Positions 4,301 to 35,362 of a stretch of DNA of 41,589 nt are shown piece by piece. Positions within the stretch are counted from its first letter, which is position 1; every line of letters begins with the position of its first letter. A program made the position numbers and the translations under genes. The notes beneath the pieces were generated by a model. The model was not told the DNA's origin, did no database searches, and was given only the letters and a program-made list of their open reading frames with translations. The DNA comes from Eubacteriales bacterium (GTDB lineage Bacteria > Bacillota > Clostridia > Oscillospirales > CAG-272), in contig JAZQXS010000058.1 of NCBI GenBank assembly GCA_045633025.1, positions 1-41,589 of the forward strand. Reading direction: 5' to 3'.

Positions 4301-7300
4301 CTTCCGGAATCTGCATGTCCTTGGGCAACGTCTCGTTGTACAGCTTGTAAGCGGTATACAAGGCCTCGGCCTGCTTCTTCAAGGGCATGGTCTTGGCTTC
4401 CAAGATCTCGTACTTGGATTTCATGGCATCCAGACGCTCCTGCTCCCGCTCGGTTCTGTCCACCTTTCTCTCCAGCTTTTCGATGCCTGCGGCCAGATCG
4501 CCCATCTCACGGATGTTCTTGCGGTTTTCGTCCCACGCCTTGGGATCTGCGGTCTGCATGATCTTGATAGCCAGGTCGTGCAGCTCCTTGGGCACGTGGT
4601 TGGTCTTGGTTGGATTGTAGAGCTTGGTCTGCAGACTACCCAGCACCCGCATGATCGTCCGCTTTCGGGAGGTCATCTCCTTGCGCATCCGACCTTCCTC
4701 GGCCTTGCGGTTCATTTTCTCCCTGAAGTATCGGTTCTTCTCGTCTGCTTTCTCGTAAGCTCGGCGGTACACAGCGTTCTTGTACTCGGTTGCGTCACGC
4801 CTTGCCTTGTAGACTCTCTCCATGGAGGTTTTGTGGATGGCCGTTTTGTAATCTTGCGCGTCCTGTCTGGCCTTCTTGACCCTCTCGTCTGCTTTCTCGC
4901 GGATTTTGGCTTCTCGTTTGCGGCTCCTTTCTCTCTCGGCTGTAATATGGGCTTTTTCTCTCTCCCTCGTTCTTTCTGCCGATCTTTCCATAGCTGCAGC
5001 CTTTTTCTCCGCCTCACGAAGCAAGCTTCCAAACGGCTTGGTCGATGTCAAAGATAAAAGCTTGTGTTTTTCGTCGCTGATCCTTTCTTTGATTTTGTCC
5101 ATTTCCGCAAGCCAAACGGTCTTTTGCGCCATCGCCCCGTCCAGCTCCTTTGTGATCCATTCGGGTCGGTTTTCTTTATCGTACCCCTTCGCCTTGCTTT
5201 GAAGTTCTTCAATGTTCCGGTTTAAAGCAGCCGTTCTCTTTCTGAGCTCTACAAGGTTGATTTCCAGTTTTGCCAATTCTTCGGCTTTTGCCTTATAGTT
5301 TTTTGCAACCTCGTATTCGTGCTGGCTTTGCGCCGCTTCCATCAAGGCATCCGCCAACATGATGTGATCTTCGATCAGCCGACGTCTCATGTCATCGTTC
5401 CCACCGGCAAACAATGATGCTTCCGCAGTTCTTTTCTCCGCTTCGGGCGCGACTTCATCCAAGCCCTCTACAATGTCAGACAGCCCGGATCTGCGCAACG
5501 CCTCATCAAAAGCGGATACGTCTGCGTTTTCTGGGCTCTCGTCGATGGAGTACATCCTCCCCTCGTCATCACCAACGACCTCCGCTTCCACTCTCTCCAG
5601 TGCTCGCTTGAAGGCAGGGCTCTCTGCTTCGGTCTTTGCCTTTTCCCCGGCGACGTACTTCTCGGTCAGCTCATGGAGCAGATCCGCGTCGAATTCGGGA
5701 ATGACAGGCTCCTGTGGCAGGTAGGTGCCGTCCTTGTCGAACATCTTGAAGTCAAGGAGCAGCTTGTAGTAGCCCTTGGTGTAGACGTACTTGCCATCAG
5801 CGTTGGTGTTGAGGAAGTCGGAGAATCGCGGGCGCAGGCCTCGCTCCTCGCAGACCTTGAGGAACCGCTCCACGAACTGTCTCTCGTTGCGGATGGGGTT
5901 CCCCTCTCGCTCGGCGGCGGCGATCACGTCGGTGTAGACGTTCACGGGCTTGGCCTTGCTTCCGGATTCCAACGGCTTTTCCACCTGCTCGTTCTTGTAG
6001 TTTTTCCACTTGCCGATCTTCTTGATCTGGCGCACCACCTCGGTCTGGCCGGTGTGGAAGGGGATGATGTAGTCGATGAAGTCATCCTCCATGGCGGTGC
6101 GGATATGGTCATCGTTGATTCCTACGAGGATGGTACCGATGTTGGGGTTTCCTCTTGCTACCTTCTTGAAGTCGGGATTGTTGAAGTCGATACCCTCCAC
6201 GGGATCGTAGACCAGAACACGCTCGCCGTTCTTCATCTCGTATCCGAGATCGCCCTTGGGGATCAGGCTGAGGTTACCCTTGGCCTTGGTGTCCTTCATG
6301 AGGAGAGCGAAGCTCGGCACCTTGGTGTAAAACTGGATCTTGATGCCCATGGCCGCGCAGTCCTGCACGGCTTGGATGATGTCGATCAGGTGGAACTCCT
6401 CAAAGTCCGAGAAGGAGAAGACACGGAGGCCGCCGAGATCGTTGATGCGCTTGACTTGATCCTTTCTGTATCTGAGGATCTGCCGTTGGTACTCGGCCTC
6501 GTTGGTAAGCAGTCGTGCCGACGACATGCCTCGTGCATTATTGAAAGCTTTCCACGCTTGGAGAATGTCCTTGTGCTCGGTTTGGAGCTTGTTCATGCCC
6601 TCCACCGTGGTCAGATCCGCGATGGTCGGCACGTAGTCTCCACCCTCCAGCATGGCCATGGCCTTGGCCTGTCCCTTGTTGTAGGCACTTTCCACGTTGT
6701 TCTTGGTATCGTAGTAGGTGTCTCGGTTGCCATTTCTCCATGCTTCTACGGCCCTCTGGAAGGTCTCTGCGATGTAGCCTTCGTTCTGACGGCGATCCTC
6801 CACGTAGCACAGACCGCAGGCCACCTCCAGGCCCTCGTCCACCATGATCTTACGAATGGTGGCGAATTCCTCGGCAGTGAATCGGCGGTTGGGGAACGCC
6901 TGCTGGATTCTCTGCATCATGCGGGTGTACTCTCTGCGCTTGCGGCAGATGTTGGAAAAGTCCAGCGTGCCCTGCTTGTAGTCACTGTTCTTGACGATGG
7001 CAGTGAGACGGCGGTCAGCCTTGCGGTGCGCGTAATCTACCATGTCGTCGCGGAGGATCAGGGTGGCGAGAGAGATCTCGTCCTCGACCCACTTACGGGC
7101 GCGGGACTCGTCTACGCCCAGCTTCTGCACCAAGCGGTTGACGGCATCGTCGATCTCCTGTTCGGTTTTGGGGATGTCGTCCACCGACAGCATGGCTGTG
7201 CCGCTTGTGGGGTCGATCATGACGCCGTCTTTTTTGTCAAAAGAATTTTCGGTGTAGGTATTGACAAAACCATCTGGTTGTGTTATACTATCATCGTAAG

Positions 7301-10300
7301 ACATTCGGTCAGTTCGCAGGAGGCCTTTCACGGCTGTATTGCTGAGACCGGGTGTCTTATTCTCTTTGAATTCTATAAGGTATTGATACTGCTCTTTTCC
7401 TTTGTCCCGGATGTTGAATGTGACTGTGTAAGGAACGCCATCAAAAACGATTTCGTTTCTGAACTTGTACCAGTATTTTACGTTTTCATGTGCTTTGTTT
7501 TTAGGCTTGATGGCAGGGTTTGCGTAGCTGTCTTCTGTATTGGTTGCAGTGGGATCGTATGTTGAAGTAGCAAGAATATCAGCTAAATCATACAGAGAGC
7601 TTATTTTTGCTTTATACTCCTCGCCCTCTACTCTTTGATCGCCGTAAATATTTTTTTGTGCCGTGAAACGATCACCCAAAATGCGAATTTTCTTGACATC
7701 GGTCTTAAGCTCTACCGCTCCAAGGTTGAAAATTGTCGCAATTCTTTCTTTGAACACCTTGATACGCTCGTCCATGTCCACGCTTTTATCAAATCCGGAC
7801 ACATAGCAGGGTCTACCGTCTTTGGTCTCGCCAATATAAGAGAATACTTTTCTTTCTTCTCCTTGCGCAGCCTCTCCAACCTCCGCCGTTCTCGTTCTCT
7901 CCCCCGCCTCTCTCACGCCCTCCGTGAACAACCGCTCGATCTCCTCCAGAGACTCCACCGTCTCCTTCAGCACCTGCGCCGTCTTGGAGGCTTGGTTCAG
8001 GCTCTCCCAGCTTCGGCGGATCTGCCCGATGATATCGAAGATCCAGTCGCGGATCTTCTCCCACAAGGTCTTGTCGGTCTTGGCCAGCTCCTCCAGCACC
8101 TTGCCGTCGGTCAGAACCAGCTCCATGCCCTCGGCCACCAGCTCCTCGCGGGCAAGGGCGTTGGCCTCGGCTACGGTCATGGTGTCCGTGACAATGCCCA
8201 GCCGCTTGAGGGATGCCAGTTTGTCTGCGATGGCTTCTTCGGCATCCACGCCCATCTGCTCCAGCACGAAATCGGCCAGAGCCTCAAATTTTGCAGGCGA
8301 CCACTCCTTGATGTAGTGGGCCACCTCGTGCCCGAGTGTGTAGAGTGATATGTTCTTTCCGTCGCGCATGGCGTTGATGTTGACGTGCAGGCGGTTGGTC
8401 TTGGTGTCGTAGTAGCCGTTGACCGTCCGTCCCTTCTTGTCCGTGATAGCCTGCTCGATCACGATCTCCGTTCCCAGCACCTCGGCCAGCACCTCGGCGG
8501 CCTTATAGGCGGCGTACTGTTCATCCGACAATGTCTTGATTTCCAGCCCCTTGCCCCGTACCACGGTTCCCTTCTTGCCTGCCATCTCGGCGGGCTTTTT
8601 CTTTGCCTTGGCTTTCTCCTCGGCAGCCTTGCGCTCGGCCTCCTCGGTCTCCCGACCGAACTTCATGGCAGCTTCCCGGGCTTCGGGTCTCATGCGGGAC
8701 AGAGGCGACTCCTCACCCACGTCGAATCCGTATCGTCCGTAGATGTGGACACCGTCCGACCACGCCGCCGCGAACTCTTCGGGGGTCATGTCCGTTCCTT
8801 TGCGGAACTCGTCCAGCATGGCCTGTACCGATCCGCGGGGGACACTCTCTTTCACAGCAGCCTTCAAGAGGGCTTGTTCTGCCTCCCCTGTGGCTCCAAG
8901 AGCCGCTATATCCGTATCAGCAGGCATCCCTGCCCATACGTCCTCCTGCGCCTCCACGGGGCTCTGCTGGGCTTCTGCGGTCTCTCCCGCCATCTCCCGC
9001 ATCATGCTCTCCAGAACAGCTCGACCCACCGTGGAGGTCAGAATATCGTCCACGTTGTTCTCCAGATCGGCCACCGTGTAGTCGCTTCTCTTCGCTCCTC
9101 TCTTGGCGGCCTCAGCATTGATCACGTCCACGATCTGCTGCTTTTGCTCAGGCTCTGCGTCCATCAGGATGGCCTCGTAGGTCTCCATCTGATAGGCCAC
9201 CTGCGCCAAGTACATGTTGCCTCTCAGCTCACCGAGGAGAGCGTCCGCCGCGCTGCTGGTAGCCCGCGTAGGATCTGCCATGATCTGACGGTAGGCAGCC
9301 ACGTTCCGACGGAGCTTGTCCGCCATCTCCCCCGCCGCCGATGCCGCCCGGCCTCTCTTAATGCCGCCAACCACACCCGTGGCCGCGCCCTTTATCTTGT
9401 CAGCGGTGCTTGCGGCCTTGTCGGCCTTCTCGGCAGCCTTGGTCTCCTTCACCTTGGTCTGTGCCCGCTCCGATCCCTTGATCAGCATCTCGGCGGTATG
9501 CAACACCTGCTCAACCTCGCCGCCCTCGCGAATCGCCTTGCCTGTCTTGCGCGCCGACTCAAAATTGATCGCCGCAGGCCCGGCCGTCATCAAGCCGCCC
9601 GAGAGGGCACCGACAACGCCTGCGTACAGAACGTTCCCGAGATTGAATTGCGCGTTCTCGTCGACGTTGAAAAGTCTCAGCAAAGCAGGATCCACCGCTT
9701 CGGAGATCGCCTCCTCTGCAAACTCTCCCGCCGCGCCCTTTGCCGTATCGACCAAGACAGAGGCGATCATAGACTTACCGCCGACCTTAGCCGCGCTCTT
9801 GGCTACGTTGACTCCCGTTCTTTTCAAGGCAGCCGAGCCAAGGCTCTTGACCGCGTTTACGCCCGCGCCCAGCTTGCTCTCCAGAATTCCTTCAACAGCT
9901 CCTACCGTCGCACCGTAGCCGAGCTCTTTGAGCCCCACGTCACCTGTCCGACCGGCGGCAGAGGATACGCCCTGCGACCCAATGGAAGCAAACATCAGCG
10001 GCTTTCCAACGATCGGAATCGCGGACAGCAAACCATAGCTGACGCTCTGACCCGCGCCGCTCACCACGTCACCCGCAAGCTGCATTCCCTTTCCGGGATT
10101 GTACCACTCGGTAAGGCTCTGCTGGGCGTCGGCTGTGCGGTTATCAAGGAATCGGTATTTGGCCATCTCTGTGTCACCGCGCAGGATGTCTCGGCTGGCA
10201 GCGGCAATATCCAGAACGCCCTCACCGACTCCGGCAAGACCAAGACCAAGTGATCCTGCCACGTACCCCGCACCTTCTGCAAGGCCGCCTCGGTTTCTTT

Positions 10301-10385
10301 CCGCATCGGAATAGGCGCTCACGTATTTCTTCTTCTTCGGCTCTTCTCTCTTCACACCGCTGTATGCCGATACGTACTTACTCAT
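1305..10385 (-). CDS. Giant 3,026-aa multidomain virion protein; candidate injected internal/ejection 'polyvalent' protein with a zincin metallopeptidase motif
   Basis: Uninterrupted 9,081-nt ORF joined TAAATG to the upstream gene. Gly/Ala-rich hydrophobic N-terminus with duplicated KYVSAYS. HEVAH at aa 686-690 (nt 8316-8330). AT-rich module at aa ~845-1060. Cys-containing central domain (ACGLCYVEDRR ... IPFHTGQ). Coiled coil of ~400 aa rich in K/E/R. Hydrophobic C-terminal segments. Confidence 0.6.
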   Translation of the reverse strand: MSKYVSAYSGVKREEPKKKKYVSAYSDAERNRGGLAEGAGYVAGSLGLGLAGVGEGVLDIAAASRDILRGDTEMAKYRFLDNRTADAQQSLTEWYNPGKGMQLAGDVVSGAGQSVSYGLLSAIPIVGKPLMFASIGSQGVSSAAGRTGDVGLKELGYGATVGAVEGILESKLGAGVNAVKSLGSAALKRTGVNVAKSAAKVGGKSMIASVLVDTAKGAAGEFAEEAISEAVDPALLRLFNVDENAQFNLGNVLYAGVVGALSGGLMTAGPAAINFESARKTGKAIREGGEVEQVLHTAEMLIKGSERAQTKVKETKAAEKADKAASTADKIKGAATGVVGGIKRGRAASAAGEMADKLRRNVAAYRQIMADPTRATSSAADALLGELRGNMYLAQVAYQMETYEAILMDAEPEQKQQIVDVINAEAAKRGAKRSDYTVADLENNVDDILTSTVGRAVLESMMREMAGETAEAQQSPVEAQEDVWAGMPADTDIAALGATGEAEQALLKAAVKESVPRGSVQAMLDEFRKGTDMTPEEFAAAWSDGVHIYGRYGFDVGEESPLSRMRPEAREAAMKFGRETEEAERKAAEEKAKAKKKPAEMAGKKGTVVRGKGLEIKTLSDEQYAAYKAAEVLAEVLGTEIVIEQAITDKKGRTVNGYYDTKTNRLHVNINAMRDGKNISLYTLGHEVAHYIKEWSPAKFEALADFVLEQMGVDAEEAIADKLASLKRLGIVTDTMTVAEANALAREELVAEGMELVLTDGKVLEELAKTDKTLWEKIRDWIFDIIGQIRRSWESLNQASKTAQVLKETVESLEEIERLFTEGVREAGERTRTAEVGEAAQGEERKVFSYIGETKDGRPCYVSGFDKSVDMDERIKVFKERIATIFNLGAVELKTDVKKIRILGDRFTAQKNIYGDQRVEGEEYKAKISSLYDLADILATSTYDPTATNTEDSYANPAIKPKNKAHENVKYWYKFRNEIVFDGVPYTVTFNIRDKGKEQYQYLIEFKENKTPGLSNTAVKGLLRTDRMSYDDSITQPDGFVNTYTENSFDKKDGVMIDPTSGTAMLSVDDIPKTEQEIDDAVNRLVQKLGVDESRARKWVEDEISLATLILRDDMVDYAHRKADRRLTAIVKNSDYKQGTLDFSNICRKRREYTRMMQRIQQAFPNRRFTAEEFATIRKIMVDEGLEVACGLCYVEDRRQNEGYIAETFQRAVEAWRNGNRDTYYDTKNNVESAYNKGQAKAMAMLEGGDYVPTIADLTTVEGMNKLQTEHKDILQAWKAFNNARGMSSARLLTNEAEYQRQILRYRKDQVKRINDLGGLRVFSFSDFEEFHLIDIIQAVQDCAAMGIKIQFYTKVPSFALLMKDTKAKGNLSLIPKGDLGYEMKNGERVLVYDPVEGIDFNNPDFKKVARGNPNIGTILVGINDDHIRTAMEDDFIDYIIPFHTGQTEVVRQIKKIGKWKNYKNEQVEKPLESGSKAKPVNVYTDVIAAAEREGNPIRNERQFVERFLKVCEERGLRPRFSDFLNTNADGKYVYTKGYYKLLLDFKMFDKDGTYLPQEPVIPEFDADLLHELTEKYVAGEKAKTEAESPAFKRALERVEAEVVGDDEGRMYSIDESPENADVSAFDEALRRSGLSDIVEGLDEVAPEAEKRTAEASLFAGGNDDMRRRLIEDHIMLADALMEAAQSQHEYEVAKNYKAKAEELAKLEINLVELRKRTAALNRNIEELQSKAKGYDKENRPEWITKELDGAMAQKTVWLAEMDKIKERISDEKHKLLSLTSTKPFGSLLREAEKKAAAMERSAERTREREKAHITAERERSRKREAKIREKADERVKKARQDAQDYKTAIHKTSMERVYKARRDATEYKNAVYRRAYEKADEKNRYFREKMNRKAEEGRMRKEMTSRKRTIMRVLGSLQTKLYNPTKTNHVPKELHDLAIKIMQTADPKAWDENRKNIREMGDLAAGIEKLERKVDRTEREQERLDAMKSKYEILEAKTMPLKKQAEALYTAYKLYNETLPKDMQIPEGPMAELSKLVDTIEDKPLKEMGLESLRAVETFVKALSHQINSANDLFLQKRGEQVSDWGNAASREAAESKPLKWLSPKSMEIKNARDVREFLWKNMKPLTAFEAIGSPKLMELFQSVLDGEEVWITDVLEAREVIVKAKEQYGYDTWDLKTRREFTNGEGKTVRLTVGEMMSLYAYAKRKQAMGHLRGGGFVLDAGATEITEKSKIRTERVLNLTERYTMTEEDMGKLAGMLTEEQKKYATEIQDYLTSLGEKGNEISRKLYGLDLFKEEHYFPIKVKSEYLESQTGKTGDPKIKNRGMSKETVPDAQNPLVLQDFMTIVSGHVNDMATYHAFVLPVEDLTRVLNYQPSNAIIDEDGNWAEDKERKEYSTLKAVIESKYGAQANAYIEQLIRDLNGGARREAAANLIDKGITAFKRASTMASLSVLVQQPTSVFRAMAYIDPKHFRSLAALDIKGHKEAWEQVKKYAKVAAIKEMGGYDTGVGTRTADYLNSKDYKTWGERAKAFFLPDVYGGDSNYRAEIFGKGAAYADELAWIQMFDACKREQAEKLGKPMDSEEVLEAAGKRFTEAVRRTQVYDSTLTRSEYMRSKDTGMKMATAFMAEPTTVVSMMLDGLIRANRGDKAFLKRTAGAIAASVIFNALAVSLIYAARDDDEEKTYTEKYLATLATETAEGFNPLEYLPYTRDVMSLMKGYDIERTDMALFADLFKSFERITSSTRTPVEKTTEVAGAVGAFFGVPIRNLVRDAMMPVNLVQGAMSGERTTGKGISAAMADEFSLITNLFGADTTNANQLYKAAKSGDEAHYNRVKSRYKSEQAAEMALRTALRENDKRIAEAAEAKISGELEAYESIIDQIESEGRFDRNLIIRAINNEVLDIKDSAEQVTAPVADAADEDEDNPESLYNASDLNDALTRGDREDFEDIYYCLLATKQEQGKTEAQAKAAVKSGITSYWKKQYLAAWDENNTAEMKRILELLEGTELYGGYNDVATMAQRWIQES

Positions 10386-21161: not shown

Positions 21162-21277
21162 AATTTCCCTCCTTTCGCAAGTTTTATCTCATAAAACGCG
21201 CCCGCGCACCCGTGCGCCCGCACCGCTGTGCGCTCGCGGCGGCGTTCATTTTGTGCCGTTTTGTCTCTTTGCGCAGA

Positions 21278-21307
21278 TTATAGCATTTTTTTCTTGATTT
21301 TGTCAGC
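21278..21307 (-). promoter_or_regulatory. Late-operon promoter: CTGACA-18 nt-TGcTATAAT
   Basis: Minus strand. -35 at 21302-21307; extended -10 TATAAT at 21278-21283. A ~110-nt GC-rich leader precedes terS. Confidence 0.55.
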
Positions 21308-21360
21308 CCCCAAAATTTGCGAATTTACATTTTGTTCATACTCCCCAATCAAGCGAACGC

Positions 21361-21399
21361 AAAACGCCCGCCAAAGTCGGTTTTTTCCGACTTGGCGGG
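21361..21399 (-). terminator. Rho-independent terminator ending the early/replication operon
   Basis: Minus strand: cccgccaagtcgg-aaaaaa-ccgactttggcggg followed by cgtttt. Confidence 0.7.
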
Positions 21400-21440
21400 T
21401 GTTTTAATTCGGTTTTTTCCGACTTGGTGGGTGTTTTAAT
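21377..21440. repeat. 32-bp tandem duplication (31/32 identical) of the terminator 3' arm and flank
   Basis: tcggttttttccgacttgg(c/t)gggtgttttaat occurs at 21377-21408 and 21409-21440. Confidence 0.85.
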
Positions 21441-21869: not shown

Positions 21870-22796
21870 TCAAAGCGCTCCAAACGCCGCACGGCGTGCC
21901 GCAATGTCTCGCCGCTCGTCCCTGCGTCTTCTCGTCTCTCTCTTTCCTGCCTCGGTGTCCTTTCGGTACAGCTTGAGGTGGATCACCCACTCCCCGAACT
22001 GCTCGATATGTACCGCGCTCGCCTCGGCCAGATAGTAGCCGGGATACCGCTCCTCGATGGCCGCGAACCGCTCCTCCGTGGGAACCACACCCTCACCGAT
22101 GTGGGCGTTGATGTCCTCAATCTCCTTGGCCAGTTCCTCTACAGAGTCCTTGCCGATCTGACCGTTGTGCTCGGCGGTCTCGGGCTTGACCATGTTGCGA
22201 CTGGCGTACCAATGGTGCTCGCCTTTTTCAAGCCCGCCCTGCTTGCTCACGTACTCAGTCATTGCCTCGAAGCCCTTCTCCGACGCCTGCAGCGTGCGGG
22301 CGTTGACGATCTGCGCCTTCCCCCACAGCTCTTTTATTCGCTGCTCGGAGAGCCCGCCCGTGATGTTAAGGTGCACGTGGAATCGCTTCCCACCGTCGTG
22401 CCCCTCGATCACGTACACGTACTTCAGAGGGAGCAATCTCCCCTTGTTGTGCTCCGCCTCCCAGACAGAGGGCTCTCGCTTCTCCCAGGCGCGCTTGACG
22501 CGTCGAAGAAACTTGTCCATCTCGGCCTTGACCTCCGCTCTGGATTCCGGCTTGTGCCCCTCGTCAAAGGTCAGCAGCACCCACAGATCCCGCCCTTCCG
22601 CAAAATTGGCCACGATCATCCGCTCAAAAGCCATCTTTCGATTCCGCTCGTTGACCAGTTCCTGGCTCTCCTTGGTAGGCTTGCCCAGGGATCTCCGCTG
22701 TCCCTTCTTGGCCTTGCACCGACAAACGGTAACGTCGCAGTACTCCAATCCCGGATTGTGCACCGTGTCCCGATAGTAGCTCACCATCGCATTCAT
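21870..22796 (-). CDS. rep: HUH-superfamily rolling-circle replication initiator (Rep)
   Basis: Motif I VLLTFD; motif II RFHVHLNI (HVH at nt 22371-22379); motif III AMTEYVSKQ (Tyr codon 22251-22253). GGAGAG RBS lies 5 nt before ATG 22796; an alternative GTG is at 22835. Confidence 0.65.
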   Translation of the reverse strand: MNAMVSYYRDTVHNPGLEYCDVTVCRCKAKKGQRRSLGKPTKESQELVNERNRKMAFERMIVANFAEGRDLWVLLTFDEGHKPESRAEVKAEMDKFLRRVKRAWEKREPSVWEAEHNKGRLLPLKYVYVIEGHDGGKRFHVHLNITGGLSEQRIKELWGKAQIVNARTLQASEKGFEAMTEYVSKQGGLEKGEHHWYASRNMVKPETAEHNGQIGKDSVEELAKEIEDINAHIGEGVVPTEERFAAIEERYPGYYLAEASAVHIEQFGEWVIHLKLYRKDTEAGKRETRRRRDERRDIAARRAAFGAL

Positions 22797-22845: not shown

Positions 22846-23349
22846 TCAAACCCACCCCATGTCCCTCTTTACCTGCTCCGACAGCTTTGCCTCGGCTGTC
22901 CCGAACTCAAAGACCTTGTTGTACAGTGCGCTACGCAGATACGCCTTGAGACAGGTCACGCCCGGCAAGGCCGCCCGAAGCTCCTCGGCTCTCTCCTCTG
23001 CCATCTCCTGCGTGACCTCGGCCAGCACCTCGGCCACCATCCCCGCCTCCAAGTCCTCTCCGTTGATGCGGATCATGGCTCGTGGCGGCATCATGTAGAC
23101 CTCGGCCATCACGCGGCACATGTCGTGCAGGATCCCGTAGCAGGCGTGGAGCCGGCTGTACTCATGGAATCCGATCTGATCCTCCGCCCTGGTGATCGCC
23201 TCCCGGAAGCTCATACGTCTGGGCTTTGGGGTATCCCCCACACCCGGTAGGCTTTGCTCACGTCCCCCGAAGGCAGGCAGGCTGGCAGGCATCTCTCGAT
23301 CAAGGATCTGATCTCTCTCGCTTGACTCGCTCCTCTTGTTTCTCGTCAT
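22846..23349 (-). CDS. Replication-module accessory protein (167 aa), unknown function
   Basis: AAAGGGGA RBS. The C-terminal pattern IRINGEDLEAGMVAEVL...KAYLRSALYN recalls C-terminal domains seen with Firmicute replication-initiator/organiser proteins. This is from memory only. Confidence 0.3.
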   Translation of the reverse strand: MTRNKRSESSERDQILDREMPASLPAFGGREQSLPGVGDTPKPRRMSFREAITRAEDQIGFHEYSRLHACYGILHDMCRVMAEVYMMPPRAMIRINGEDLEAGMVAEVLAEVTQEMAEERAEELRAALPGVTCLKAYLRSALYNKVFEFGTAEAKLSEQVKRDMGWV

Positions 23350-23465
23350 TCTCTTGTTCCCCTTTCGTGGTTCTATACTTAATACAGCAATGCCAGCCTA
23401 TGAGGATGGCGAGTCCTCAAATTAACGCCGTTATGCAGTTGCTGTCGCCGGGCTTTGCCCGTAGC

Positions 23466-23531
23466 CAAGGGCGGCGGAATCGAACCGCCTGCGGGCTTGT
23501 CCCGCGCTCCCTGCGCCCTTGATATAATAAA
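23466..23531. other. Candidate replication origin: cloverleaf (tRNA-like T-arm plus acceptor-like stem) ending in CCCTTGATATAATAAAGG
   Basis: Outer stem caagggc (23466-72) / gcccttg (23515-21). Inner hairpins ggcgg-aatcgaa-ccgcc and gcggg-cttgt-cccgc. CTTGATA at 23518-23524 on the plus strand. Confidence 0.45.
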
Positions 23532-23541
23532 GGTAGGCTTT

Positions 23542-23561
23542 GCCCTCCCCGAAGGGAGGGC
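23542..23561 (-). terminator. Hairpin gccctccc-cgaa-gggagggc after the 23573 gene
   Basis: 8-bp GC stem with tetraloop, 11 nt after the stop. The downstream U-tract is weak. Confidence 0.35.
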
Positions 23562-23572
23562 TACGTCTTGCA

Positions 23573-23989
23573 TCAAAGCTCGATGTGCTCGATCTCCGCT
23601 CTGATCTCCAGAACGTGGAGGTAATGCCTCATTGCGTTCAGTTGCTCACGGAGCAGATCCAGATCGCAGTCATGCTTGGGCATGTCCACCTTTTCCGGAT
23701 TCCGCATGGCCGCCTCAATGCGATTGCAGAACCTATTCAGCCGCTCGTAGCGGATCTTGGTCTGGCGATACTCGGCAACAAATCGCGCCTTGTAGTCCTC
23801 GCTAAGCATGAGAGGCACGGTCTCCTCAAACTCGTTGTAGGGCTTGCAGGAGCAGGCCATCATCTTGGTTTCATCCATCGATTTCGCCTCCTTTCTTCTC
23901 AAAATATTCAACTCGCAGATCCCGCACAGCTCCCTGTCCTCACACCGTAGGCAAGGATCGCGCCGGATCGCAAATCCGTTTTCGGTCAT
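23573..23989 (-). CDS. Conserved phage early protein (138 aa) with N-terminal Cys cluster
   Basis: CLRCEDRELCGIC, then KARFVAEYRQTKIRYERLNRF...LREQLNAMRHYLHVLEIRAEIEHIEL. I recall this helical pattern from uncharacterised phage proteins. Confidence 0.35.
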   Translation of the reverse strand: MTENGFAIRRDPCLRCEDRELCGICELNILRRKEAKSMDETKMMACSCKPYNEFEETVPLMLSEDYKARFVAEYRQTKIRYERLNRFCNRIEAAMRNPEKVDMPKHDCDLDLLREQLNAMRHYLHVLEIRAEIEHIEL

Positions 23990-24979: not shown

Positions 24980-25361
24980 GCAGCCATCTCCCTTCATAAA
25001 ATACCCACGCCCGGCCATCCTCGTCCACGTGCACCGTGATCTGCTCCTCGTTGGTGGCGATCACCAGGGCGGCGCGGAAGGTCTCCTCGTCGGGGGCCTC
25101 CTCGGCCTCGGTGAACTCGGTCGCGGCCAGCTCGGCAAGCACCGCCTCCAGCTTCTCCCCGCCGATCCACTTCTGCTCGTATGGCCTGGCCAGGTCGGGT
25201 ATGTAGTAGCAGACCGTCACATCGGAGGCGGCGGGGAGTCCAAACGGCTCGCCCTCCCGGTCTCTCCGAAACCGGACTCCCAGCACCAGCAGCGCGAAGG
25301 CCAGCACCAGAACCAACAAGACCATCAGCCGCAGGGCGTAGTCCTTACAGGCTTGTTTCAT
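24969..25361 (-). CDS. Signal-anchored/secreted small protein (130 aa)
   Basis: ATGA overlap with the parB-like stop. N-terminal hydrophobic LRLMVLLVLVLAFALLVLGV. Confidence 0.45.
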   Translation of the reverse strand: MKQACKDYALRLMVLLVLVLAFALLVLGVRFRRDREGEPFGLPAASDVTVCYYIPDLARPYEQKWIGGEKLEAVLAELAATEFTEAEEAPDEETFRAALVIATNEEQITVHVDEDGRAWVFYEGRWLHET

Positions 25362-27181
25362 GCACCCGCCTCCTTCATCAACGTGTGGAATCCCCATCTT
25401 TTCTTTTCGTTGAACCAACGGTCAATGCATACCTCGCAGGATATATCGTCGCCGTTCTCATCAACCGTGCAGAGAATGTCGCAGCAGAACCAATCGTGCA
25501 GCTTGTGCGTCAGCTCCTCAACGGTTTCGCATGCGGGGATCAGTTTCAAAAGCTCCGACGCTCTATCCGGATCTCTGCCTCGGTCAAACGCGGCCACCCA
25601 CTTCGCCAGCTGCTCCTTGCTCAACAGCTTCAACGCCTCAAATCGGGTCATCTCCTTGCCCGGCTCGGCAGCGACTTCTGCGGCCTCGTTCGCCCCGACC
25701 TTTACCTCCCCCGGATCCTTGCCGCCGTTGGCGTAATACATGGGGCTTGTTCCATCCAGCAGGGCCCGCTCATAGGGCTCCACCTCGTATCCGAGCGCCT
25801 CCAGGAGCTTGTAGATCAGATCCAGCTTATCACTTTTTTCGTAATCGCCCATGTACTGCCTGGCGGTCTTGTCGCCGCTGTACTGCCACGTGTGGAACGG
25901 ATGGTGGCCTCCTCCGTTGTTCTCGATCCCCGCATAGATCGCCCACAATGCGGTCTGCACAGGGTGTCTGCGAGCATCATTTTTAACGTCGTTGAGGAGG
26001 TCATTGTCAGTCTTCCCCTCATGATCTGTCCAGTCACCGAGGAATTCCTCCAGATCGTCTCTTCCGGTGTACGGGTTTCCGTTATTATACGCCCAGTAGT
26101 CCACCGCTCCGGCCATGAACGCGCCGAACACAGCGGTACACGTGGCGGAGTCCAGACCTCCCACCCAGAACTTCCGCTTTTCAGCCAGTTCCTCAAATAC
26201 CTGCTTCAAGCCGTCTGCAACGCGCTTGCGCTCGTTCCATTCGGCATCCCATGCGGCCTTGGCAGGATCCTCGTTCACAGGATCTGCGCCGGTCTTGGCG
26301 AACAGTCGCACCTCGGAGGGATACTCTTCCAGCCAGTAGGCTACCTCCCACTCGGGCTTTACGGTTCCGTCCAACTTCGCGCCGAGGAACTTCTCGTTGG
26401 AGGGCTTGGCGGACTTGGAAACGCTCACAACATGCTTCCATTCGCCCGAATACCGCTCCTTCTGCTCAAGCCTGCGCAGACCCATGCTCTCCATGACCTC
26501 CGTCCAGGCCGACTCCTGCTCTCGCTTCTTCTCGATATCCTTGGCGTTCTTGACCTGCCACTCAAAGTTGGCCGTTCCAATGGCTCCGAGAGCCTTGTCG
26601 CGCAGCTCCTCATCGTTGATCTCGCCCACCTTCTCCAGATCGCCAATGGAGATCTGCTTGCCCTTGGCCGCCTTTTCCAGCTGCTCGGGGGCAATGGCCG
26701 CCACCTTCAGGCGGCGGCGCACCGTGGACTCGCTGATACCCGTCTTCTCGGCGATCTGGGCGGCACCCAGACCCAGATCCATGGAGAGCTGACGCAGACC
26801 CTGCGCCTGCTCCACGGGGGTCAGATCGGTTCTCTGCAGGTTCTCGGTCACCATGGTTGCCAGCTGATCCTCGTAGCTCATGTCCGCGATCACGCAAGGC
26901 ACCTCGGGCAGTCCTGCCAGCTTGGCCGCGCCCAGACGTCTGTGACCGATGACCGCCATGTAGTAGCCGCCGTCGATCTGCTCCGCGGTGATCCCCAGCT
27001 CAGCGATCCGCTCGGCGGGAAGATTCCCGACCTCCACCACCGTCAGGTTCTGCATGATTCCATTTGACTTGATGCTCTCGGCCATCTCGGTGAGATCCCC
27101 CAGCTCCTTGCGGGGGTTCTTGGGGTGCGGCAGGATCTTCTCCGTCCGCAGGTATACGAGGTTGTTTCTTACGGTTTCCAT
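25358..27181 (-). CDS. ParB/Srx-like N-terminal domain protein (607 aa) with HTH and long C-terminal extension
   Basis: KILPHPKNPRK and VIGHRRLGAAKLAG motifs of the ParB-like nuclease domain. HTH segment AAQIAEKTGISESTVRRRL. Confidence 0.75.
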   Translation of the reverse strand: METVRNNLVYLRTEKILPHPKNPRKELGDLTEMAESIKSNGIMQNLTVVEVGNLPAERIAELGITAEQIDGGYYMAVIGHRRLGAAKLAGLPEVPCVIADMSYEDQLATMVTENLQRTDLTPVEQAQGLRQLSMDLGLGAAQIAEKTGISESTVRRRLKVAAIAPEQLEKAAKGKQISIGDLEKVGEINDEELRDKALGAIGTANFEWQVKNAKDIEKKREQESAWTEVMESMGLRRLEQKERYSGEWKHVVSVSKSAKPSNEKFLGAKLDGTVKPEWEVAYWLEEYPSEVRLFAKTGADPVNEDPAKAAWDAEWNERKRVADGLKQVFEELAEKRKFWVGGLDSATCTAVFGAFMAGAVDYWAYNNGNPYTGRDDLEEFLGDWTDHEGKTDNDLLNDVKNDARRHPVQTALWAIYAGIENNGGGHHPFHTWQYSGDKTARQYMGDYEKSDKLDLIYKLLEALGYEVEPYERALLDGTSPMYYANGGKDPGEVKVGANEAAEVAAEPGKEMTRFEALKLLSKEQLAKWVAAFDRGRDPDRASELLKLIPACETVEELTHKLHDWFCCDILCTVDENGDDISCEVCIDRWFNEKKRWGFHTLMKEAGA

Positions 27182-32820: not shown

Positions 32821-32883
32821 AGGTGATGAGAGGACGTGGGAGCACGTTCACTATCACGTTGCGTGGATTTTCTCCACGCCTAT

Positions 32884-32912
32884 ATTATATTACAAAGCCC
32901 CGCAAATGTAAA
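32884..32912 (-). promoter_or_regulatory. toxIN promoter TTTACA-17-TATAAT
   Basis: Minus strand: -35 at 32907-32912, -10 at 32884-32889. An A/T-rich UP-like tract lies upstream. Confidence 0.7.
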
Positions 32913-34111: not shown

Positions 34112-35188
34112 ATGCCAAAAAAGCGCAACACAAAGCTCCCCGCCATTAAGCAGCTCCCCAGCGGAGCGTATCACGCATCTGTATACAGCCACACCGATGC
34201 GGACGGCAAGCGGCATTATGAGTCCTTCACCGATTTCGACTACAATGCCGTTCTCCTGGCAGTGGCGCAGTTCAAGGCGGACAAGAAGCAGGACAAGATC
34301 GACCGCGCTACCGGTAAGATCAAGATGACACTGGGGGAGGCCATGGAGAAGTACATGGAATCCAAGTCTGCTGTTCTGTCCCCCGCCACGATCCGCTCCT
34401 ACCGCACTATTATCCGCAACTATCTAAGAGTACTCCAGACTGTCCATGTGGACGAGCTCACCCGAGATCAGGTCCAGGTGGCTATCAATCAAGAGTCCAT
34501 GGCCCACTCCCCTAAAACTGTTCGCAACATTCACGGCTTTCTGACCGCCGTCCTGCAGGTATACCGCCCCGACTTTGTCCTGCACACAACTCTTCCCCAA
34601 AAGAAAAAGCCCTCGATCTCCATCCCCACCGAGGACGAGATCAAGAAGCTCTTTACTATGACCGAGGGAACTGACCTGTATATCCCCGTCCTGCTCGGTG
34701 CGGTTTGCGGTATGCGTCGCGGAGAGATCGGAGCGCTCACGTGGGACAGCATCGACTTCGGAAAAGGCACTATCACCATCGACCAGGCACTCGTGCTTGG
34801 CGAGGATCACGAGTGGATCGAAAAGACCACCAAGACCACAGCCGGTACCCGCACCATCCGTATGATCCCCCTCGTGGCCGGCACCCTTAAAAAAGCCAAG
34901 GAGGAGAGTCCCTCTACTGACGGCTATATCACTATCCGCCCGGACCTTATCAGCAACCGTTTCTACAACCTGATCCGCGAGTCAGATATCCCAAACTACC
35001 GCTTTCACGATCTGCGCCACTATACCGTTTCCGTCATGCTGTCGTTAAATATTCCTCAAAATTATATTGCCGGATTTGTCGGCCACAGCAGCACCAGAAT
35101 GATTGAAACCGTCTACGGCCACCTTATGGCATCAAAAAAGACATCCGTTGAAGACCAAATGCAAGACTATTTCGCCAAGTTTCTGTAA
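34112..35188 (+). CDS. int: Tyrosine recombinase / phage integrase
   Basis: 358 aa. SAM-like N-terminal core-binding region. GMRRGEI (Arg), FHDLRHY (HxxR) and ETVYGHL (catalytic Tyr) motifs. Adjacent to the att site. Confidence 0.9.
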   Translation: MPKKRNTKLPAIKQLPSGAYHASVYSHTDADGKRHYESFTDFDYNAVLLAVAQFKADKKQDKIDRATGKIKMTLGEAMEKYMESKSAVLSPATIRSYRTIIRNYLRVLQTVHVDELTRDQVQVAINQESMAHSPKTVRNIHGFLTAVLQVYRPDFVLHTTLPQKKKPSISIPTEDEIKKLFTMTEGTDLYIPVLLGAVCGMRRGEIGALTWDSIDFGKGTITIDQALVLGEDHEWIEKTTKTTAGTRTIRMIPLVAGTLKKAKEESPSTDGYITIRPDLISNRFYNLIRESDIPNYRFHDLRHYTVSVMLSLNIPQNYIAGFVGHSSTRMIETVYGHLMASKKTSVEDQMQDYFAKFL

Positions 35189-35306: not shown

Positions 35307-35338
35307 AAAAACCCTTGCATGGCAAGGGTTTTCTCTTT
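35307..35338. terminator. Bidirectional terminator aaaacccttgc-atg-gcaagggtttt between int and the tRNA-derived core
   Basis: On the plus strand it follows int. On the minus strand it sits exactly where a terminator for a reconstituted tRNA gene would lie. Confidence 0.7.
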
Positions 35339-35362
35339 GGAGCGAGTAACGGGAATCGAACC
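35338..35362 (-). other. att core: 3'-terminal 25 nt of a tRNA gene (fragment, not a functional tRNA)
   Basis: Minus strand: GGTTCGATTCCCGTTACTCGCTCCA = T-loop, T-stem 3' strand, acceptor 3' strand, discriminator and CCA. Upstream sequence has no D or anticodon arms. Confidence 0.7.

What the first reader, a model, noticed from the sequence alone, without database searches (positions are those of the whole stretch)
23350..23572. Structured intergenic element: tRNA-like cloverleaf ending in a phiX174/pC194-type nick motif, upstream of an HUH Rep
This 223-nt non-coding gap in the replication module folds as follows:
- An outer 7-bp stem (caagggc 23466-72 / gcccttg 23515-21).
- Two enclosed hairpins, one with the canonical T-arm sequence GGCGG-TTCGATT-CCGCC on the minus strand.

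The 3' arm of the outer stem runs into CCCTTGATATAATAAAGG (23516-23533). The remembered phiX174 origin core is CAACTTG^ATATTAATAAC, and the pC194-family nick site is CTTG^ATA. The match here is CTTGATAT(-)AATAA, identical apart from one missing T.

The nearby gene at 21870-22796 has RCR motifs I (LLTF), II (HVHLNI) and III (EYVSK). This may be the double-strand origin, perhaps combined with a single-strand origin, of a rolling-circle replicating tailed phage. The motif is on the strand opposite rep, which is atypical.
Basis: partly seen in the sequence, partly recalled or inferred. Interest (0 to 1): 0.7.

Follow-up and report, generated by a model that had tools for sequence, protein, structure and literature searches.

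The report
tRNA-shaped element beside replication origin box
The gap holds a real, evolutionarily conserved tRNA-shaped fold with no anticodon, read on the gene strand. About 100 bases downstream on that strand is a conserved sequence box found next to this replication gene in many phages.

Summary
The fold exists at the stated coordinates, on the minus (gene-sense) strand:
- 7-bp acceptor stem, 23521-15 / 23472-66
- small GG-loop hairpin
- variable hairpin
- T arm, GGCGG-UUCGAUU-CCGCC

All 16 distinct relatives (Rep 44-91% identical) carry it. Of 22 modelled pairs, 20 show compensatory changes. Wobble is strand-asymmetric (22 G.U against 4 A.C). Most keep the T-loop consensus UUCRA, and seven keep an NCCA tail. 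It is not a tRNA gene (ARAGORN finds none, Rfam is below threshold, there is no anticodon arm) and matches no Rfam family.

The proposed nick motif CTTGATATAATAA (+ strand) is only the complement of the acceptor stem plus an A/U box. It is not conserved: the closest relatives read CCTGTTATAA. CTTGATA occurs 6 times in the window against about 3 expected.

The conserved Rep-linked sequence lies elsewhere in the gap, on the rep strand at 23396-23367: CTGGCATTGCTGTATTAAGTATAGAACCAC. Its consensus is GGGCTTGTAATGGGTATTAA-N7-RAC. A regex for it hits 42 times against 0.8 expected, always rep-sense, in 41 of 76 loci whose Rep is only 24-35% identical. It shares ordered blocks with the phiX174 origin.

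Best reading: an RNA tRNA mimic cut by tRNA-processing enzymes, upstream of a probable Rep nick or recognition box. The main rival is that the cloverleaf works as single-stranded DNA, as a lagging-strand origin.

The parts
23542..23561 (-). GC-rich hairpin GCCCUCCC-UUCG-GGGAGGGC just after the stop codon of the upstream (sequestin-like) gene. No U-tract follows it.
   Evidence: Sequence. The MFE keeps it. An equivalent GC hairpin with different sequence is present in relatives. Not called a terminator.
23522..23536 (-). Conserved CUAC plus an A/U-rich box (UUUAUUAUAU) that abuts position 1 of the cloverleaf. Positions -4 to -1 read A-U-A-W in 14 of the 15 relatives listed (L201 has C at -4).
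Evidence: Alignments. Only one such motif on the minus strand of the window.
23462..23521 (-). tRNA-like cloverleaf (TLS).
- acceptor 5' strand 23521-15
- GG-loop mini-hairpin 23514-06
- variable hairpin 23505-491
- T arm 23489-73 (loop UUCGAUU)
- acceptor 3' strand 23472-66
- tail G-CUA 23465-62
   Evidence: Fold. Covariance model R1 scores 90 bits here and gives one hit per family locus. Covariation. Wobble asymmetry. Sub-threshold tRNA-Sec hit of 28.4 bits against a gathering score of 47. ARAGORN finds none.
23450..23460 (-). Small hairpin GGGC-AAA-GCCC right after the tail. Present only in the closer subfamily.
   Evidence: Helix 5 (59% paired overall; covaries as GGGC/GCCC, CGGC/GCCG, GGGG/CCCC). 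Sequences.
23401..23429 (-). Domain 2 helices.
- hairpin S2: UGAGGA (23419-14) / UCCUCA (23406-01), with conserved loop yUCGCyA (23413-07)
- S1: GGCG (23429-26) pairing with loop CGCC (23411-08). S1 and S2 form either a pseudoknot or alternative folds.
   Evidence: Manual register on 16 sequences. S2 is 100% paired with compensatory changes. S1 is paired in 61 of 64 cells, and 24 of 5000 shuffles reach this. RNAalifold finds S1.
23367..23396 (-). Rep-linked box CTGGCATTGCTGTATTAAGTATAGAACCAC. TATTAA (23384-79) is invariant in the 15-sequence alignment A5 (14 of 15 end in a sixth A; L203 reads TATTAT). ACCAC is 23371-67. Probable Rep nick or recognition site (double-strand origin core). The alternative is a Rep-module promoter or operator.
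   Evidence: Invariant columns. The superfamily regex CT[TC]G-N6-GTATTAA gives 42 hits, all rep-sense, in 41 of 76 distant loci, against 0.8 expected. A looser form hits 23 of the remaining 35 loci, of which about 15 lie upstream of rep and 8 inside or just past it. phiSM101 and Saumur carry it. Only one copy in the window. The phiX174 origin 30-mer was verified.
23347..23366 (-). Purine-rich ribosome-binding site (GAAAGGGGAA) and the ATG of the 167-aa gene that heads the Rep module.
   Evidence: ORF list, alignment.
23516..23533 (+). Not a feature in its own right: it is the complement of the acceptor 5' strand plus the A/U box.
22846..23349 (-). 167-aa protein of unknown function, first gene after the element. 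Homologues of it precede Rep in 10 of the 14 gene-called family loci. In L201, L203, L204 and L206 a gene of 56-201 aa holds this position, and its homology was not tested.
   Evidence: 88 homologues, no Pfam hit. AlphaFold2 pLDDT 77, no PDB fold match.
21870..22796 (-). HUH rolling-circle Rep (motifs LLTF, HVHLNI, EYVSK).

Best explanation
The gap is the cis-acting control region in front of the rolling-circle replication module (167-aa gene, rep, small ORF, terminator). The host phage is a temperate, roughly 42-44 kb Oscillospiraceae phage. The gap holds two separate things on the gene-sense (minus) strand.

(1) A 60-nt anticodon-less tRNA mimic.
- It has a 7-bp acceptor stem stacked on a 5-bp T stem, a T loop UUCRAYY, and a small hairpin whose loop offers GG like a D loop.
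- It also has a dispensable variable hairpin and an N-CCA-like tail.
- I infer it acts as RNA inside the early polycistronic transcript and is recognised by host tRNA-processing enzymes.
- RNase P would cut at its 5' end, after the conserved A-U-A-W leader. RNase Z or the CCA-adding enzyme would act at its 3' end.
- This would split the variable upstream accessory genes from the Rep operon. The upstream mRNA would end in a protective GC hairpin, and a small stable tRNA-like RNA would be released.

(2) About 70-100 nt downstream, after a conserved hairpin (S2), a box CTNGYATT..(G/C)TATTAA-N7-ACCAC.
- It is the local version of a motif (GGGCTTGTAATGGGTATTAA-N7-RAC) tied to this Rep superfamily.
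- I infer it is the site Rep recognises and nicks (double-strand origin), on the rep strand as in phiX174 and f1.

Inferred: RNA rather than DNA action, RNase P/Z cleavage, nicking at the box.
For: tRNA mimic:
- The cloverleaf is the MFE in the window and in 11 of 15 relatives folded independently.
- The covariance model gives one hit per family locus, always sense strand and always at the same place. It finds none in about 48 distant-Rep loci and no second copy in the window.
- 20 of 22 pairs show double changes, 85.6% of cells are paired, 0 of 500 shuffles reach this, and slid controls give 37-46%.
- G.U 22 against A.C 4, so the sense strand folds. Wobble is 8.6% of paired cells in the cloverleaf against 1% in hairpin S2.
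- The T loop obeys UUCRA in 13 of 16 sequences, with G53, C56 and C61 equivalents invariant.
- The tail is NCCA in L002, L005, L007, L195, L197, L204 and L208, and one transition away (CUA) in the window.
- The variable arm is absent in L113 and L193, so only the minihelix and elbow are kept.
- A 7-bp acceptor makes a bacterial tRNA-like module an RNase P substrate that also receives CCA in vivo (YrlA, PMC4201824).
- There is no sigma-70 promoter in the gap, whereas a canonical TGcTATAAT promoter is conserved ahead of the late genes. Co-transcription with upstream genes is therefore plausible.

Rep box:
-, with strand specificity 42 of 42.
- An 18-nt stretch is identical between L001 and L127, whose Rep is 27% identical.
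- Blocks CTTG, ATATTAA and ACCAC occur in the phiX174 order.
Against: - No transcript or cleavage data exist. RNA-level action rests on tRNA-like signatures only.
- The NCCA tail and T loop have decayed in some members. L196 and L199 have loop GUCGGCA, and L193 has tail AAAA. Strict tRNA-enzyme recognition is therefore not universal.
- The cloverleaf sits immediately 5' of the putative nick site on the strand that rolling-circle replication would displace. That is exactly where plasmid and f1 lagging-strand origins sit, and G.T wobble is also compatible with ssDNA.
- The box always lies 21-57 nt from the first start codon of the Rep module. That geometry also fits a promoter with TATTAA as the -10 element.
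- The resemblance to phiX174 is three short blocks found after the fact. Homology of Rep to gpA is not demonstrable (hhalign probability 0.6%).
Confidence: 0.45

Rival explanations
1. The cloverleaf works as single-stranded DNA. After Rep nicks the sense strand at the box, the displaced sense strand folds into the cloverleaf. It then serves as the lagging-strand (single-strand) origin, a structured site where RNA polymerase, primase or PriA starts the complementary strand.
For: - It is on the same strand as the Rep box and immediately 5' of it.
- From established knowledge, single-strand origins of rolling-circle plasmids and the f1 minus-strand origin lie just upstream of the nick site, so they are exposed last.
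- The strand-specific wobble is what an orientation-dependent ssDNA signal would show.
- The DNA fold of the gap is also unusually stable (z = -3.5 on the + strand).
- Three hairpins closed by a stem recall G4-type priming signals. Vertebrate mitochondrial light-strand origins sit among tRNA genes (my knowledge).
Against: - Conservation of the tRNA-specific T-loop sequence, a GG loop and an NCCA tail has no known role in DNA.
- The wobble frequency is RNA-like (8.6%).
- Distant relatives with the same box have no cloverleaf, only a simple hairpin.
- A 42-kb dsDNA phage is not expected to depend on a single priming site.
- No ssoA-type RS_B or CS-6 elements are seen on the folding strand.
Confidence: 0.22
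2. The released tRNA-like RNA is itself the product. It would be a small decoy or regulator, for example one that titrates a host tRNA-binding enzyme or defence factor. Alternatively it acts like the RNase P-processed antisense RNAs C4 (P1/P7) and CI (P4). The cut in the mRNA would then be incidental.
For: - The tRNA signatures are the same as for the best explanation.
- The neighbouring upstream genes are counter-defence or accessory genes. They include sequestin, a sponge for immune signals.
- The variable arm differs between phages, as a specificity determinant would.
Against: - The variable arm is missing altogether in two lineages (L113, L193).
- No complementary target was found for the loops.
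- The element is linked to the conserved Rep module rather than to the variable upstream genes.
- It matches no Rfam family, including C4.
Confidence: 0.18
3. One reading: CTTG^ATATAATAA on the + strand (23518-23530) is the Rep nick site, presented by the cloverleaf.
For: The string is present. It resembles CTTG^ATA of pC194 and the first part of the phiX174 core.
Against: - It is not conserved. The relatives with 91% and 85% identical Rep have CCTGTTATAA..., and L195 and L204 have CCTTATATAG....
- The changes are compensated within the RNA-sense stem.
- CTTGATA is no commoner than chance.
- It lies on the strand opposite to rep and opposite to the folding strand.
- A far better conserved Rep-linked box exists elsewhere in the gap.
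Confidence: 0.03
4. The Rep-linked box is not a nick site. It is the promoter or operator of the Rep module, with TATTAA as the -10 element and the conserved RAC 7 nt downstream as the start point. Rep or another phage factor may recognise it.
For: - The box lies 21-57 nt upstream of the first start codon of the module in the window, L157, L171 and phiSM101.
- In distant loci a hairpin plus a short T run precedes it, like a terminator of the upstream unit.
Against: - There is no -35 element or TG at a workable spacing. The sigma-70 scan finds nothing.
- The same phages use a canonical extended -10 promoter elsewhere.
- A 20-nt sequence held across hosts from Clostridium to Oscillospiraceae, alongside Reps only 24-35% identical, is typical of nick regions of rolling-circle families.
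- It shares blocks with the phiX174 origin.
Confidence: 0.25
5. A decaying tRNA gene, or a tRNA fragment left by integration or excision (an att remnant), with no present function.
For: - The T arm and CCA look like tRNA.
- The phage is temperate and integrates next to a tRNA 3' end.
Against: - Compensatory substitutions in every helix across 16 lineages show selection on the fold.
- The real att-like tRNA fragment is at 35338-35362 beside the integrase and has a different sequence.
- The element keeps both acceptor strands, unlike att fragments.
- ARAGORN calls no tRNA in any of the 16 distinct members: the window and 15 relatives.
Confidence: 0.03

Closest known systems
tRNA-like modules of bacterial and phage Y RNAs (YrlA)
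   Same: Both have a T arm with tRNA consensus, a D-like loop and an acceptor-like stem. The M. smegmatis YrlA, with a 7-bp acceptor, is cut by RNase P and receives CCA (PMC4201824).
   Different: No Ro60/Rsr gene is nearby, no Ro-binding helix continues from the acceptor stem, and Rfam gives no YrlA hit. Here the element is embedded in an mRNA leader next to a Rep gene.
RNase P-processed phage regulatory RNAs (C4 of P1/P7, CI of P4) and tRNA 'punctuation' / t-elements of organelle transcripts
   Same: The principle is the same: a tRNA-like fold inside a longer phage or organelle transcript directs RNase P (and RNase Z) cleavage and sets mRNA ends (my knowledge).
   Different: There is no sequence or Rfam similarity and no antisense target was found. 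Cleavage has not been shown here.
tmRNA tRNA-like domain / tRNA minihelix
   Same: Both have acceptor plus T arm plus a D-loop analogue without an anticodon arm, and a CCA end. L001 and L002 even have G3.U70 with A73.
   Different: There is no tag reading frame or pseudoknots, and ARAGORN finds no tmRNA. G3.U70 is not conserved: the window has A3-U70 and G73.
phiX174 origin (CAACTTG^ATATTAATAACACTATAGACCAC) and pC194-family nick site CTTG^ATA
   Same: The Rep-linked box has CTTG, (A/G)TATTAA and (G/A)ACCAC in the same order and on the rep strand. It lies next to an HUH Rep.
   Different: - The spacers differ: 6 nt are inserted after CTTG, and 7 rather than 11 nt precede ACCAC.
- The window's own copy reads CTGG, not CTTG.
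- Pfam assigns Rep to PF23343, not to the gpA or Rep_1 families.
- The nick position is unknown.
Single-strand origins (ssoA/T/U/W of rolling-circle plasmids, f1 minus-strand origin, G4-type priming signals)
   Same: All are strand-specific, heavily folded elements just 5' of the leading-strand nick site.
   Different: No RS_B or CS-6 elements are present, and there are tRNA-specific loop sequences and a CCA tail. Function has not been tested.

Membership tests
tRNA gene | 7-bp acceptor stem and 5-bp T stem with loop T-psi-C-R-A | tested here: met
   The loop is UUCRA in 13 of 16 sequences.
tRNA gene | Anticodon arm (5-bp stem, 7-nt loop with U33 and R37) and a full D arm | tested here: not met
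   - The middle hairpin has a 3-7 bp stem and a 3-7 nt loop.
- It is absent in L113 and L193.
- The D-like hairpin is 2-3 bp.
tRNA gene | Detected by tRNA finders or reaches the Rfam gathering score | tested here: not met
   ARAGORN finds 0 in the window and in 15 relatives. The best Rfam hit is tRNA-Sec at 28.4 bits against a gathering score of 47, and nothing passes at gathering threshold.
tmRNA | tRNA-like domain plus tag reading frame and pseudoknots | tested here: not met
   ARAGORN finds no tmRNA and Rfam finds none.
   Relatives have CCTGTTATAA and other variants. The count in the window is at chance level.
phiX174 / pC194-type double-strand origin (at the Rep box, - strand 23396-67) | Conserved core linked to the Rep gene, on the rep strand, with CTTG...ATATTAA...GACCAC blocks | tested here: inconclusive
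   Linkage and strand are met. The blocks are present in the superfamily and in phiSM101, but the spacers differ and the window has CTGG. The phiX core itself was verified.
phiX174 / pC194-type double-strand origin | Cognate Rep belongs to the gpA (PF05840) or Rep_1 (PF01446) family | tested here: not met
   The only Pfam hit is PF23343. hhalign against phiX174 gpA aligns the HUH region only, with probability 0.6%.
phiX174 / pC194-type double-strand origin | Site-specific cleavage and joining by the Rep | not testable with these tools
   Needs purified Rep and oligonucleotides.
HUH rolling-circle Rep (the neighbouring gene) | Motifs I, II (HUH) and III (Yxx K) conserved | tested here: met
Single-strand origin (sso / ssi) | Orientation-dependent conversion of displaced ssDNA. 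For ssoA, RS_B and CS-6 (TAGCGT) elements. | not testable with these tools
   The position and strand fit. No CS-6 is seen on the folding strand: the S2 loop reads yUCGCyA. The function needs a plasmid ssDNA assay.
Y RNA (YrlA) | Adjacent Ro60/Rsr gene, Ro-binding helix, Rfam model | tested here: not met
   There is no Rfam hit. No TROVE domain is found in the large ORFs scanned.
RNase P substrate (tRNA-like) | 12-bp acceptor/T stack, T-loop/D-loop elbow, RCCA tail, cleavage at +1 | not testable with these tools
   The structural prerequisites are present. Cleavage itself was not tested.

The most novel reading that the evidence does not exclude
A tRNA-shaped element has been recruited into the origin region of rolling-circle tailed phages and couples host tRNA machinery, or tRNA-shaped DNA, to replication. 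Two versions are open.
- The displaced strand folds into a DNA 'tRNA' that primes lagging-strand synthesis.
- RNase P cleavage of the tRNA mimic licenses expression or activation of the adjacent origin.

Alongside this, a phiX174-like origin core would be shared by a large, previously unnoticed superfamily of HUH Reps of Clostridia and Lactobacillales tailed phages. That would link Microviridae-type origins to dsDNA phages.
Probability: 0.2. Interest if true: 0.8.

Novelty: new variant of a known kind. Interest (0 to 1): 0.6.

Why it matters
tRNA mimics are well known in RNA viruses, tmRNA and Y RNAs. A covariation-supported, anticodon-less tRNA mimic conserved in the replication-control region of gut dsDNA phages is in neither Rfam nor the searched literature.

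If it is an RNase P/Z punctuation signal, it shows organelle-style tRNA punctuation in phage operons. If it acts as folded DNA, it would be a new kind of lagging-strand origin.

The Rep-linked box gives a concrete, testable origin for a widespread but uncharacterised family of HUH Reps. That family includes cultured phages phiSM101, PhiS63, Saumur and Latilactobacillus phages. The box also hints at a link to the phiX174 origin.

The element also creates false ORF calls: an 82-aa 'gene' lies over it in L007.

Tried and rejected
- **Known tRNA or RNA family.** ARAGORN and Rfam at gathering and permissive thresholds give no family. Only a sub-threshold tRNA-Sec hit appears.
- **Close DNA relatives in annotated phages.** None.
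- **Exact-pattern scans.** IMG/VR had no relative by the T-arm pattern. The 17-mer scan of JGI metagenomes returned 97 stretches, and none of the fetched loci carried the element. Relatives had to be fetched through Rep protein look-ups.
- **Sigma-70 promoter or terminator in the gap.** None.
- **A repeated phage promoter made of CUAC plus the A/U box.** Only one copy on the gene strand.
- **Function of the 167-aa neighbour.**
  - No Pfam or PHROG hit.
  - The AlphaFold2 model (pLDDT 77) has no significant PDB fold match.
- **Rep against solved structures.** No sequence hit.
- **Rep against phiX174 gpA by hhalign.** Only the HUH stretch aligns, which is inconclusive.
- **Long-range helix in domain 2 (ACAGCAA/UUGCUGU).** It is present in the window, but my by-eye comparison of the sequences found only partial support in relatives. 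It was not tested with a pair count, so I did not claim it.
- **T-box-like pairing of the NCCA tail with UGG in domain 2.** By eye it did not hold across relatives. It was not tested formally.
- **Origin in the intergenic region after the Rep module.** That region is a terminator plus a canonical late promoter and leader.
- **Literature.** Searches for the motif and for phage tRNA-like elements next to Rep found nothing relevant.
Full report
**Layout.** All genes around the finding run on the minus strand.
- ParB: 25358-27181.
- A sequestin/crAss001_48-like protein: 23573-23989.
- The 223-nt gap: 23350-23572.
- A 167-aa protein with no family: 22846-23349.
- Rep: 21870-22796 (homologues start at the Met of 22796).
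- An 82-aa ORF, a strong terminator, then small and large terminase.
- Rep hits Pfam PF23343 (REP_ORF2-G2P) and phrog_3584. In 32 homologues H140, H142, Y182 and K185 are invariant and L75-T76-F77 nearly so.
- A tyrosine integrase (34112-35188) shows the phage is temperate.
- MAG titles of relatives point to Oscillospiraceae hosts.

**The observation.**
- Read on the minus strand, 23521-23462 is CAAGGGC-GCAGGGAGC-GCGGGACAAGCCCGC-A-GGCGGUUCGAUUCCGCC-GCCCUUG-GCUA.
- It folds as a cloverleaf that takes 80% of the ensemble (-31.8 kcal/mol, z = -2.5).
- ARAGORN finds no tRNA or tmRNA in the window.
- Rfam finds nothing at gathering thresholds. A permissive scan gives only a tRNA-Sec match of 28.4 bits against a gathering score of 47.

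**Relatives.** Rep has 71 homologues, many on contigs of about 43.6 kb.
- I fetched loci through Rep and through the 167-aa protein.
- This gave 16 distinct versions of the gap, spanning Rep identities from 44% to 91%.
- Every one has the element on the sense strand, at the same place upstream of the gene that precedes rep.
- The genes further upstream vary: sequestin, a methyltransferase, DUF6275, DUF6440 and others. The element therefore belongs to the conserved Rep module and marks its left edge.

**Structure test.** I built a covariance model from eight sequences.
- It finds exactly one hit per family locus, one in the window (90 bits), and none in about 48 loci with distant Reps.
- On the resulting alignment 85.6% of cells are paired, against 37-46% when partners are slid by 1-3 columns.
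- 20 of 22 pairs show changes on both sides, and no shuffle out of 500 reaches the observed values.
- That alignment is fitted to the model. However, 11 of 15 sequences give the same cloverleaf when folded independently.
- G.U/U.G pairs outnumber A.C/C.A 22 to 4, so the gene-sense strand is the one that folds.
- The T loop is UUCRA in 13 of 16 sequences.
- Most small first hairpins appear to carry GG in the loop. I judged this by reading the sequences and did not tabulate it.
- The middle hairpin varies from 3 to 7 bp and is missing in two lineages.
- The four bases after the acceptor stem are NCCA in seven lineages and GCUA in the window.
- What is conserved is the acceptor/T minihelix plus the elbow. 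That is the part of a tRNA read by RNase P, RNase Z and the CCA-adding enzyme.
- Neutral decay of a tRNA gene is excluded by the compensatory changes.
- The phage's real att-like tRNA fragment lies beside the integrase at 35338-35362 and is unrelated in sequence.

**The proposed nick motif.**
- On the + strand, CTTG is the complement of acceptor positions 1-4, and ATATAATAAAGG is the complement of the A/U box that precedes the cloverleaf.
- In the relatives with 91% and 85% identical Rep the sequence is CCTGTTATAA / CCTGTTATAAAAT. The A-to-G change is accommodated as a G.U pair in the stem.
- CTTGATA occurs six times in the window, with 2.9 +/- 1.6 expected.
- The motif also lies on the strand that shows mismatches rather than wobble.
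- It is a chance resemblance.

**What else is in the gap.** The 3' half (domain 2) is better conserved in sequence than the cloverleaf.
- It holds a hairpin S2 (UGAGGA/UCCUCA, 23419-23401). S2 is 100% paired with compensatory changes, and its loop yUCGCyA is conserved.
- The loop can pair with an upstream RGCG (S1). 61 of 64 cells are paired, variants include AGCG:CGCU, AACG:CGUU and GGUG:UGCC, and 24 of 5000 shuffles reach this.
- The connecting loops are too short for a relaxed pseudoknot. In L208 the hairpin loop is only 5 nt. S1 and S2 may therefore be alternative folds.
- Next comes CTGGCATTGCTGTATTAAGTATAGAACCAC (23396-23367).
  - TATTA is invariant in the 15-sequence alignment. The sixth base is A in 14 of 15 (L203 has TATTAT).
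  - ACCA is nearly invariant.
- The ribosome-binding site and ATG follow directly.

**The box is tied to the Rep superfamily.** I tested 76 IMG/VR loci whose Rep is only 24-35% identical.
- The pattern CT[TC]G-N6-GTATTAA occurs 42 times against 0.8 expected from composition.
- All 42 hits are on the rep strand, in 41 loci. All but one lie upstream of the Rep match; the sampled offsets run from about 100 to 720 nt upstream.
- A looser form hits 23 of the remaining 35 loci. About 15 of these hits lie upstream of rep. In the other 8 (the L130 group) the hit lies inside or just past rep and may be chance.
- The consensus is a GC hairpin, a few T, then GGGCTTGTAATGGGTATTAA-N7-RAC.
- L127 (27% Rep identity) shares 18 identical bases (GTATTAAGTTTACGACCA) with L001.
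- Cultured phages carry it too:
  - Clostridium perfringens phage phiSM101: CCTTGTACTAGATATTAACTTAACGACCA, 57 nt before rep.
  - Clostridium phage Saumur: GGGCTTGTATGGGGTATTAAC.
- The window has only one copy.

**Comparison with phiX174.**
- I checked my recollection of the phiX174 origin. CAACTTGATATTAATAACACTATAGACCAC is at 4299-4328 in gene A and is identical in 544 microvirus records.
- The box shares CTTG, (A/G)TATTAA and (G/A)ACCAC in the same order, but with different spacers.
- This is a lead, not proof. hhalign between the Rep profile and gpA aligns only the HUH stretch, with probability 0.6%.
- The box could also be a promoter. It always sits just before the module's first ribosome-binding site. 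However, it has no -35 or TG element at a usable spacing. The same phages also use a canonical TGcTATAAT promoter ahead of the late genes.

**Mechanism.**
- I commit to a two-part reading. The cloverleaf is an RNA tRNA mimic inside the early transcript, and the box is where Rep acts on DNA.
- For the cloverleaf, the closest experimental precedent is the YrlA module of M. smegmatis. With its 7-bp acceptor stem, it is cut by RNase P and receives CCA in vivo (PMC4201824).
- From my own knowledge, the P1/P7 C4 and P4 CI RNAs and organelle tRNA punctuation work on the same principle.
- Cleavage at 23521 would leave the upstream message ending at the GC hairpin 23561-23542. That hairpin has no U-tract and so is not a terminator.
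- It would also free a roughly 60-nt tRNA-like RNA and give the Rep operon its own 5' end.
- All of this is inferred. No tool here sees RNA ends.

**Main rival.** The cloverleaf may act as folded single-stranded DNA.
- It lies immediately 5' of the putative nick on the strand that would be displaced. Plasmid single-strand origins and the f1 minus-strand origin sit in that position.
- Its strand-specific wobble would fit this reading too.
- Against it:
  - The tRNA-specific loop sequences and the CCA tail have no known DNA role.
  - Wobble frequency is 8.6% in the cloverleaf against 1% in S2.
  - Distant relatives that keep the box have no cloverleaf.
- I rate RNA action at about 0.65 and ssDNA action at about 0.25-0.3.

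**Novelty.**
- Rfam 15 has no matching family.
- Full-text searches found nothing on phage tRNA-like elements beside an HUH Rep, and nothing on the box sequence.
- tRNA mimicry and rolling-circle origins are both known kinds. This combination, and the breadth of the box, appear undescribed.

**Dead ends.**
- The 167-aa neighbour has no Pfam or PHROG family. Its AlphaFold2 model (pLDDT 77) matches no PDB fold.
- Rep has no solved homologue by sequence.
- The JGI metagenome pattern scan returned 97 stretches, none of which carried the element among the fetched loci.

Noticed in passing
window 35338-35362 (minus strand), next to ORF 34112-35188 (+): GGTTCGATTCCCGTTACTCGCTCCA is the T arm, acceptor 3' strand and CCA of a tRNA. 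A hairpin plus T-run terminator follows (35331-35300). It lies about 150 nt beyond a tyrosine integrase (PF00589), so this is the likely attP core, and the phage integrates into a host tRNA gene.
   Followed up: partly
window 21200-21310 (minus strand): A canonical promoter (CTGACA, 18 nt, TGcTATAAT at 21285-21277) is followed by a conserved GC-rich leader ending in GCGCGGGCGCG-UUUU, just ahead of the small terminase gene. It is conserved across the family (A7). It looks like a late promoter with a leader terminator, which suggests antitermination control.
   Followed up: partly
window 21361-21437: A 32-nt unit occurs twice in tandem (94% identical). Together the copies form a long hairpin, AAAACACCCGCCAAGTCGG-AAAAAA-CCGACTTTGGCGGGCGTTTT. 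This is the likely terminator of the Rep operon.
   Followed up: partly
L209 (phiSM101) 1233-1261 and 1343-1375: phiSM101 has a second copy of TACTAGATATTAAC. It lies inside a perfect 10-bp hairpin (GGCGTTAATA...TATTAACGCC) about 100 nt upstream of the Rep box. The arm GGCGTTAAT is identical to the S1 region of the window family.
   Followed up: no
L005 3990-4140, L208 110-250: About 130 nt of extra non-coding sequence is conserved between L005 and L208 upstream of the cloverleaf (AAGTCACATAAAAAAGCCAC...GGTAATCA..CTCGGAAG). A permissive Rfam scan that covered L208 gave no hit, and L005 was not scanned. The sequence is absent from the window.
   Followed up: no
L007/L008 4187-4435: Gene callers placed an 82-aa ORF exactly over the cloverleaf and domain 2. 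It is almost certainly a false gene call caused by the structured non-coding element.
   Followed up: partly
window 23573-23989 (minus strand): The upstream neighbour carries the crAss001_48/'Sequestin' domain (PF21825). Recent papers describe this as a phage sponge for nucleotide immune signals. This position is variable among relatives: four other relatives (L001, L002, L197, L203) also have a Sequestin-domain gene here, while L005, L007 and L206 have DUF6275, an unannotated ORF and a DUF6440 gene.
   Followed up: partly
window 1305-10385 (minus strand): A 3026-aa ORF with no Pfam domain. Its C-terminal third matches phrog_22978 (unknown function, profile length 3513).
   Followed up: no
window about 32850-32900 (+ strand): In the lysogeny region, a hairpin (CGTGGA-TTTTC-TCCACG) is followed by CCTATATTATATTAC. 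This resembles the hairpin / CUAC / A-U-box arrangement upstream of the cloverleaf, but no cloverleaf follows.
   Followed up: no
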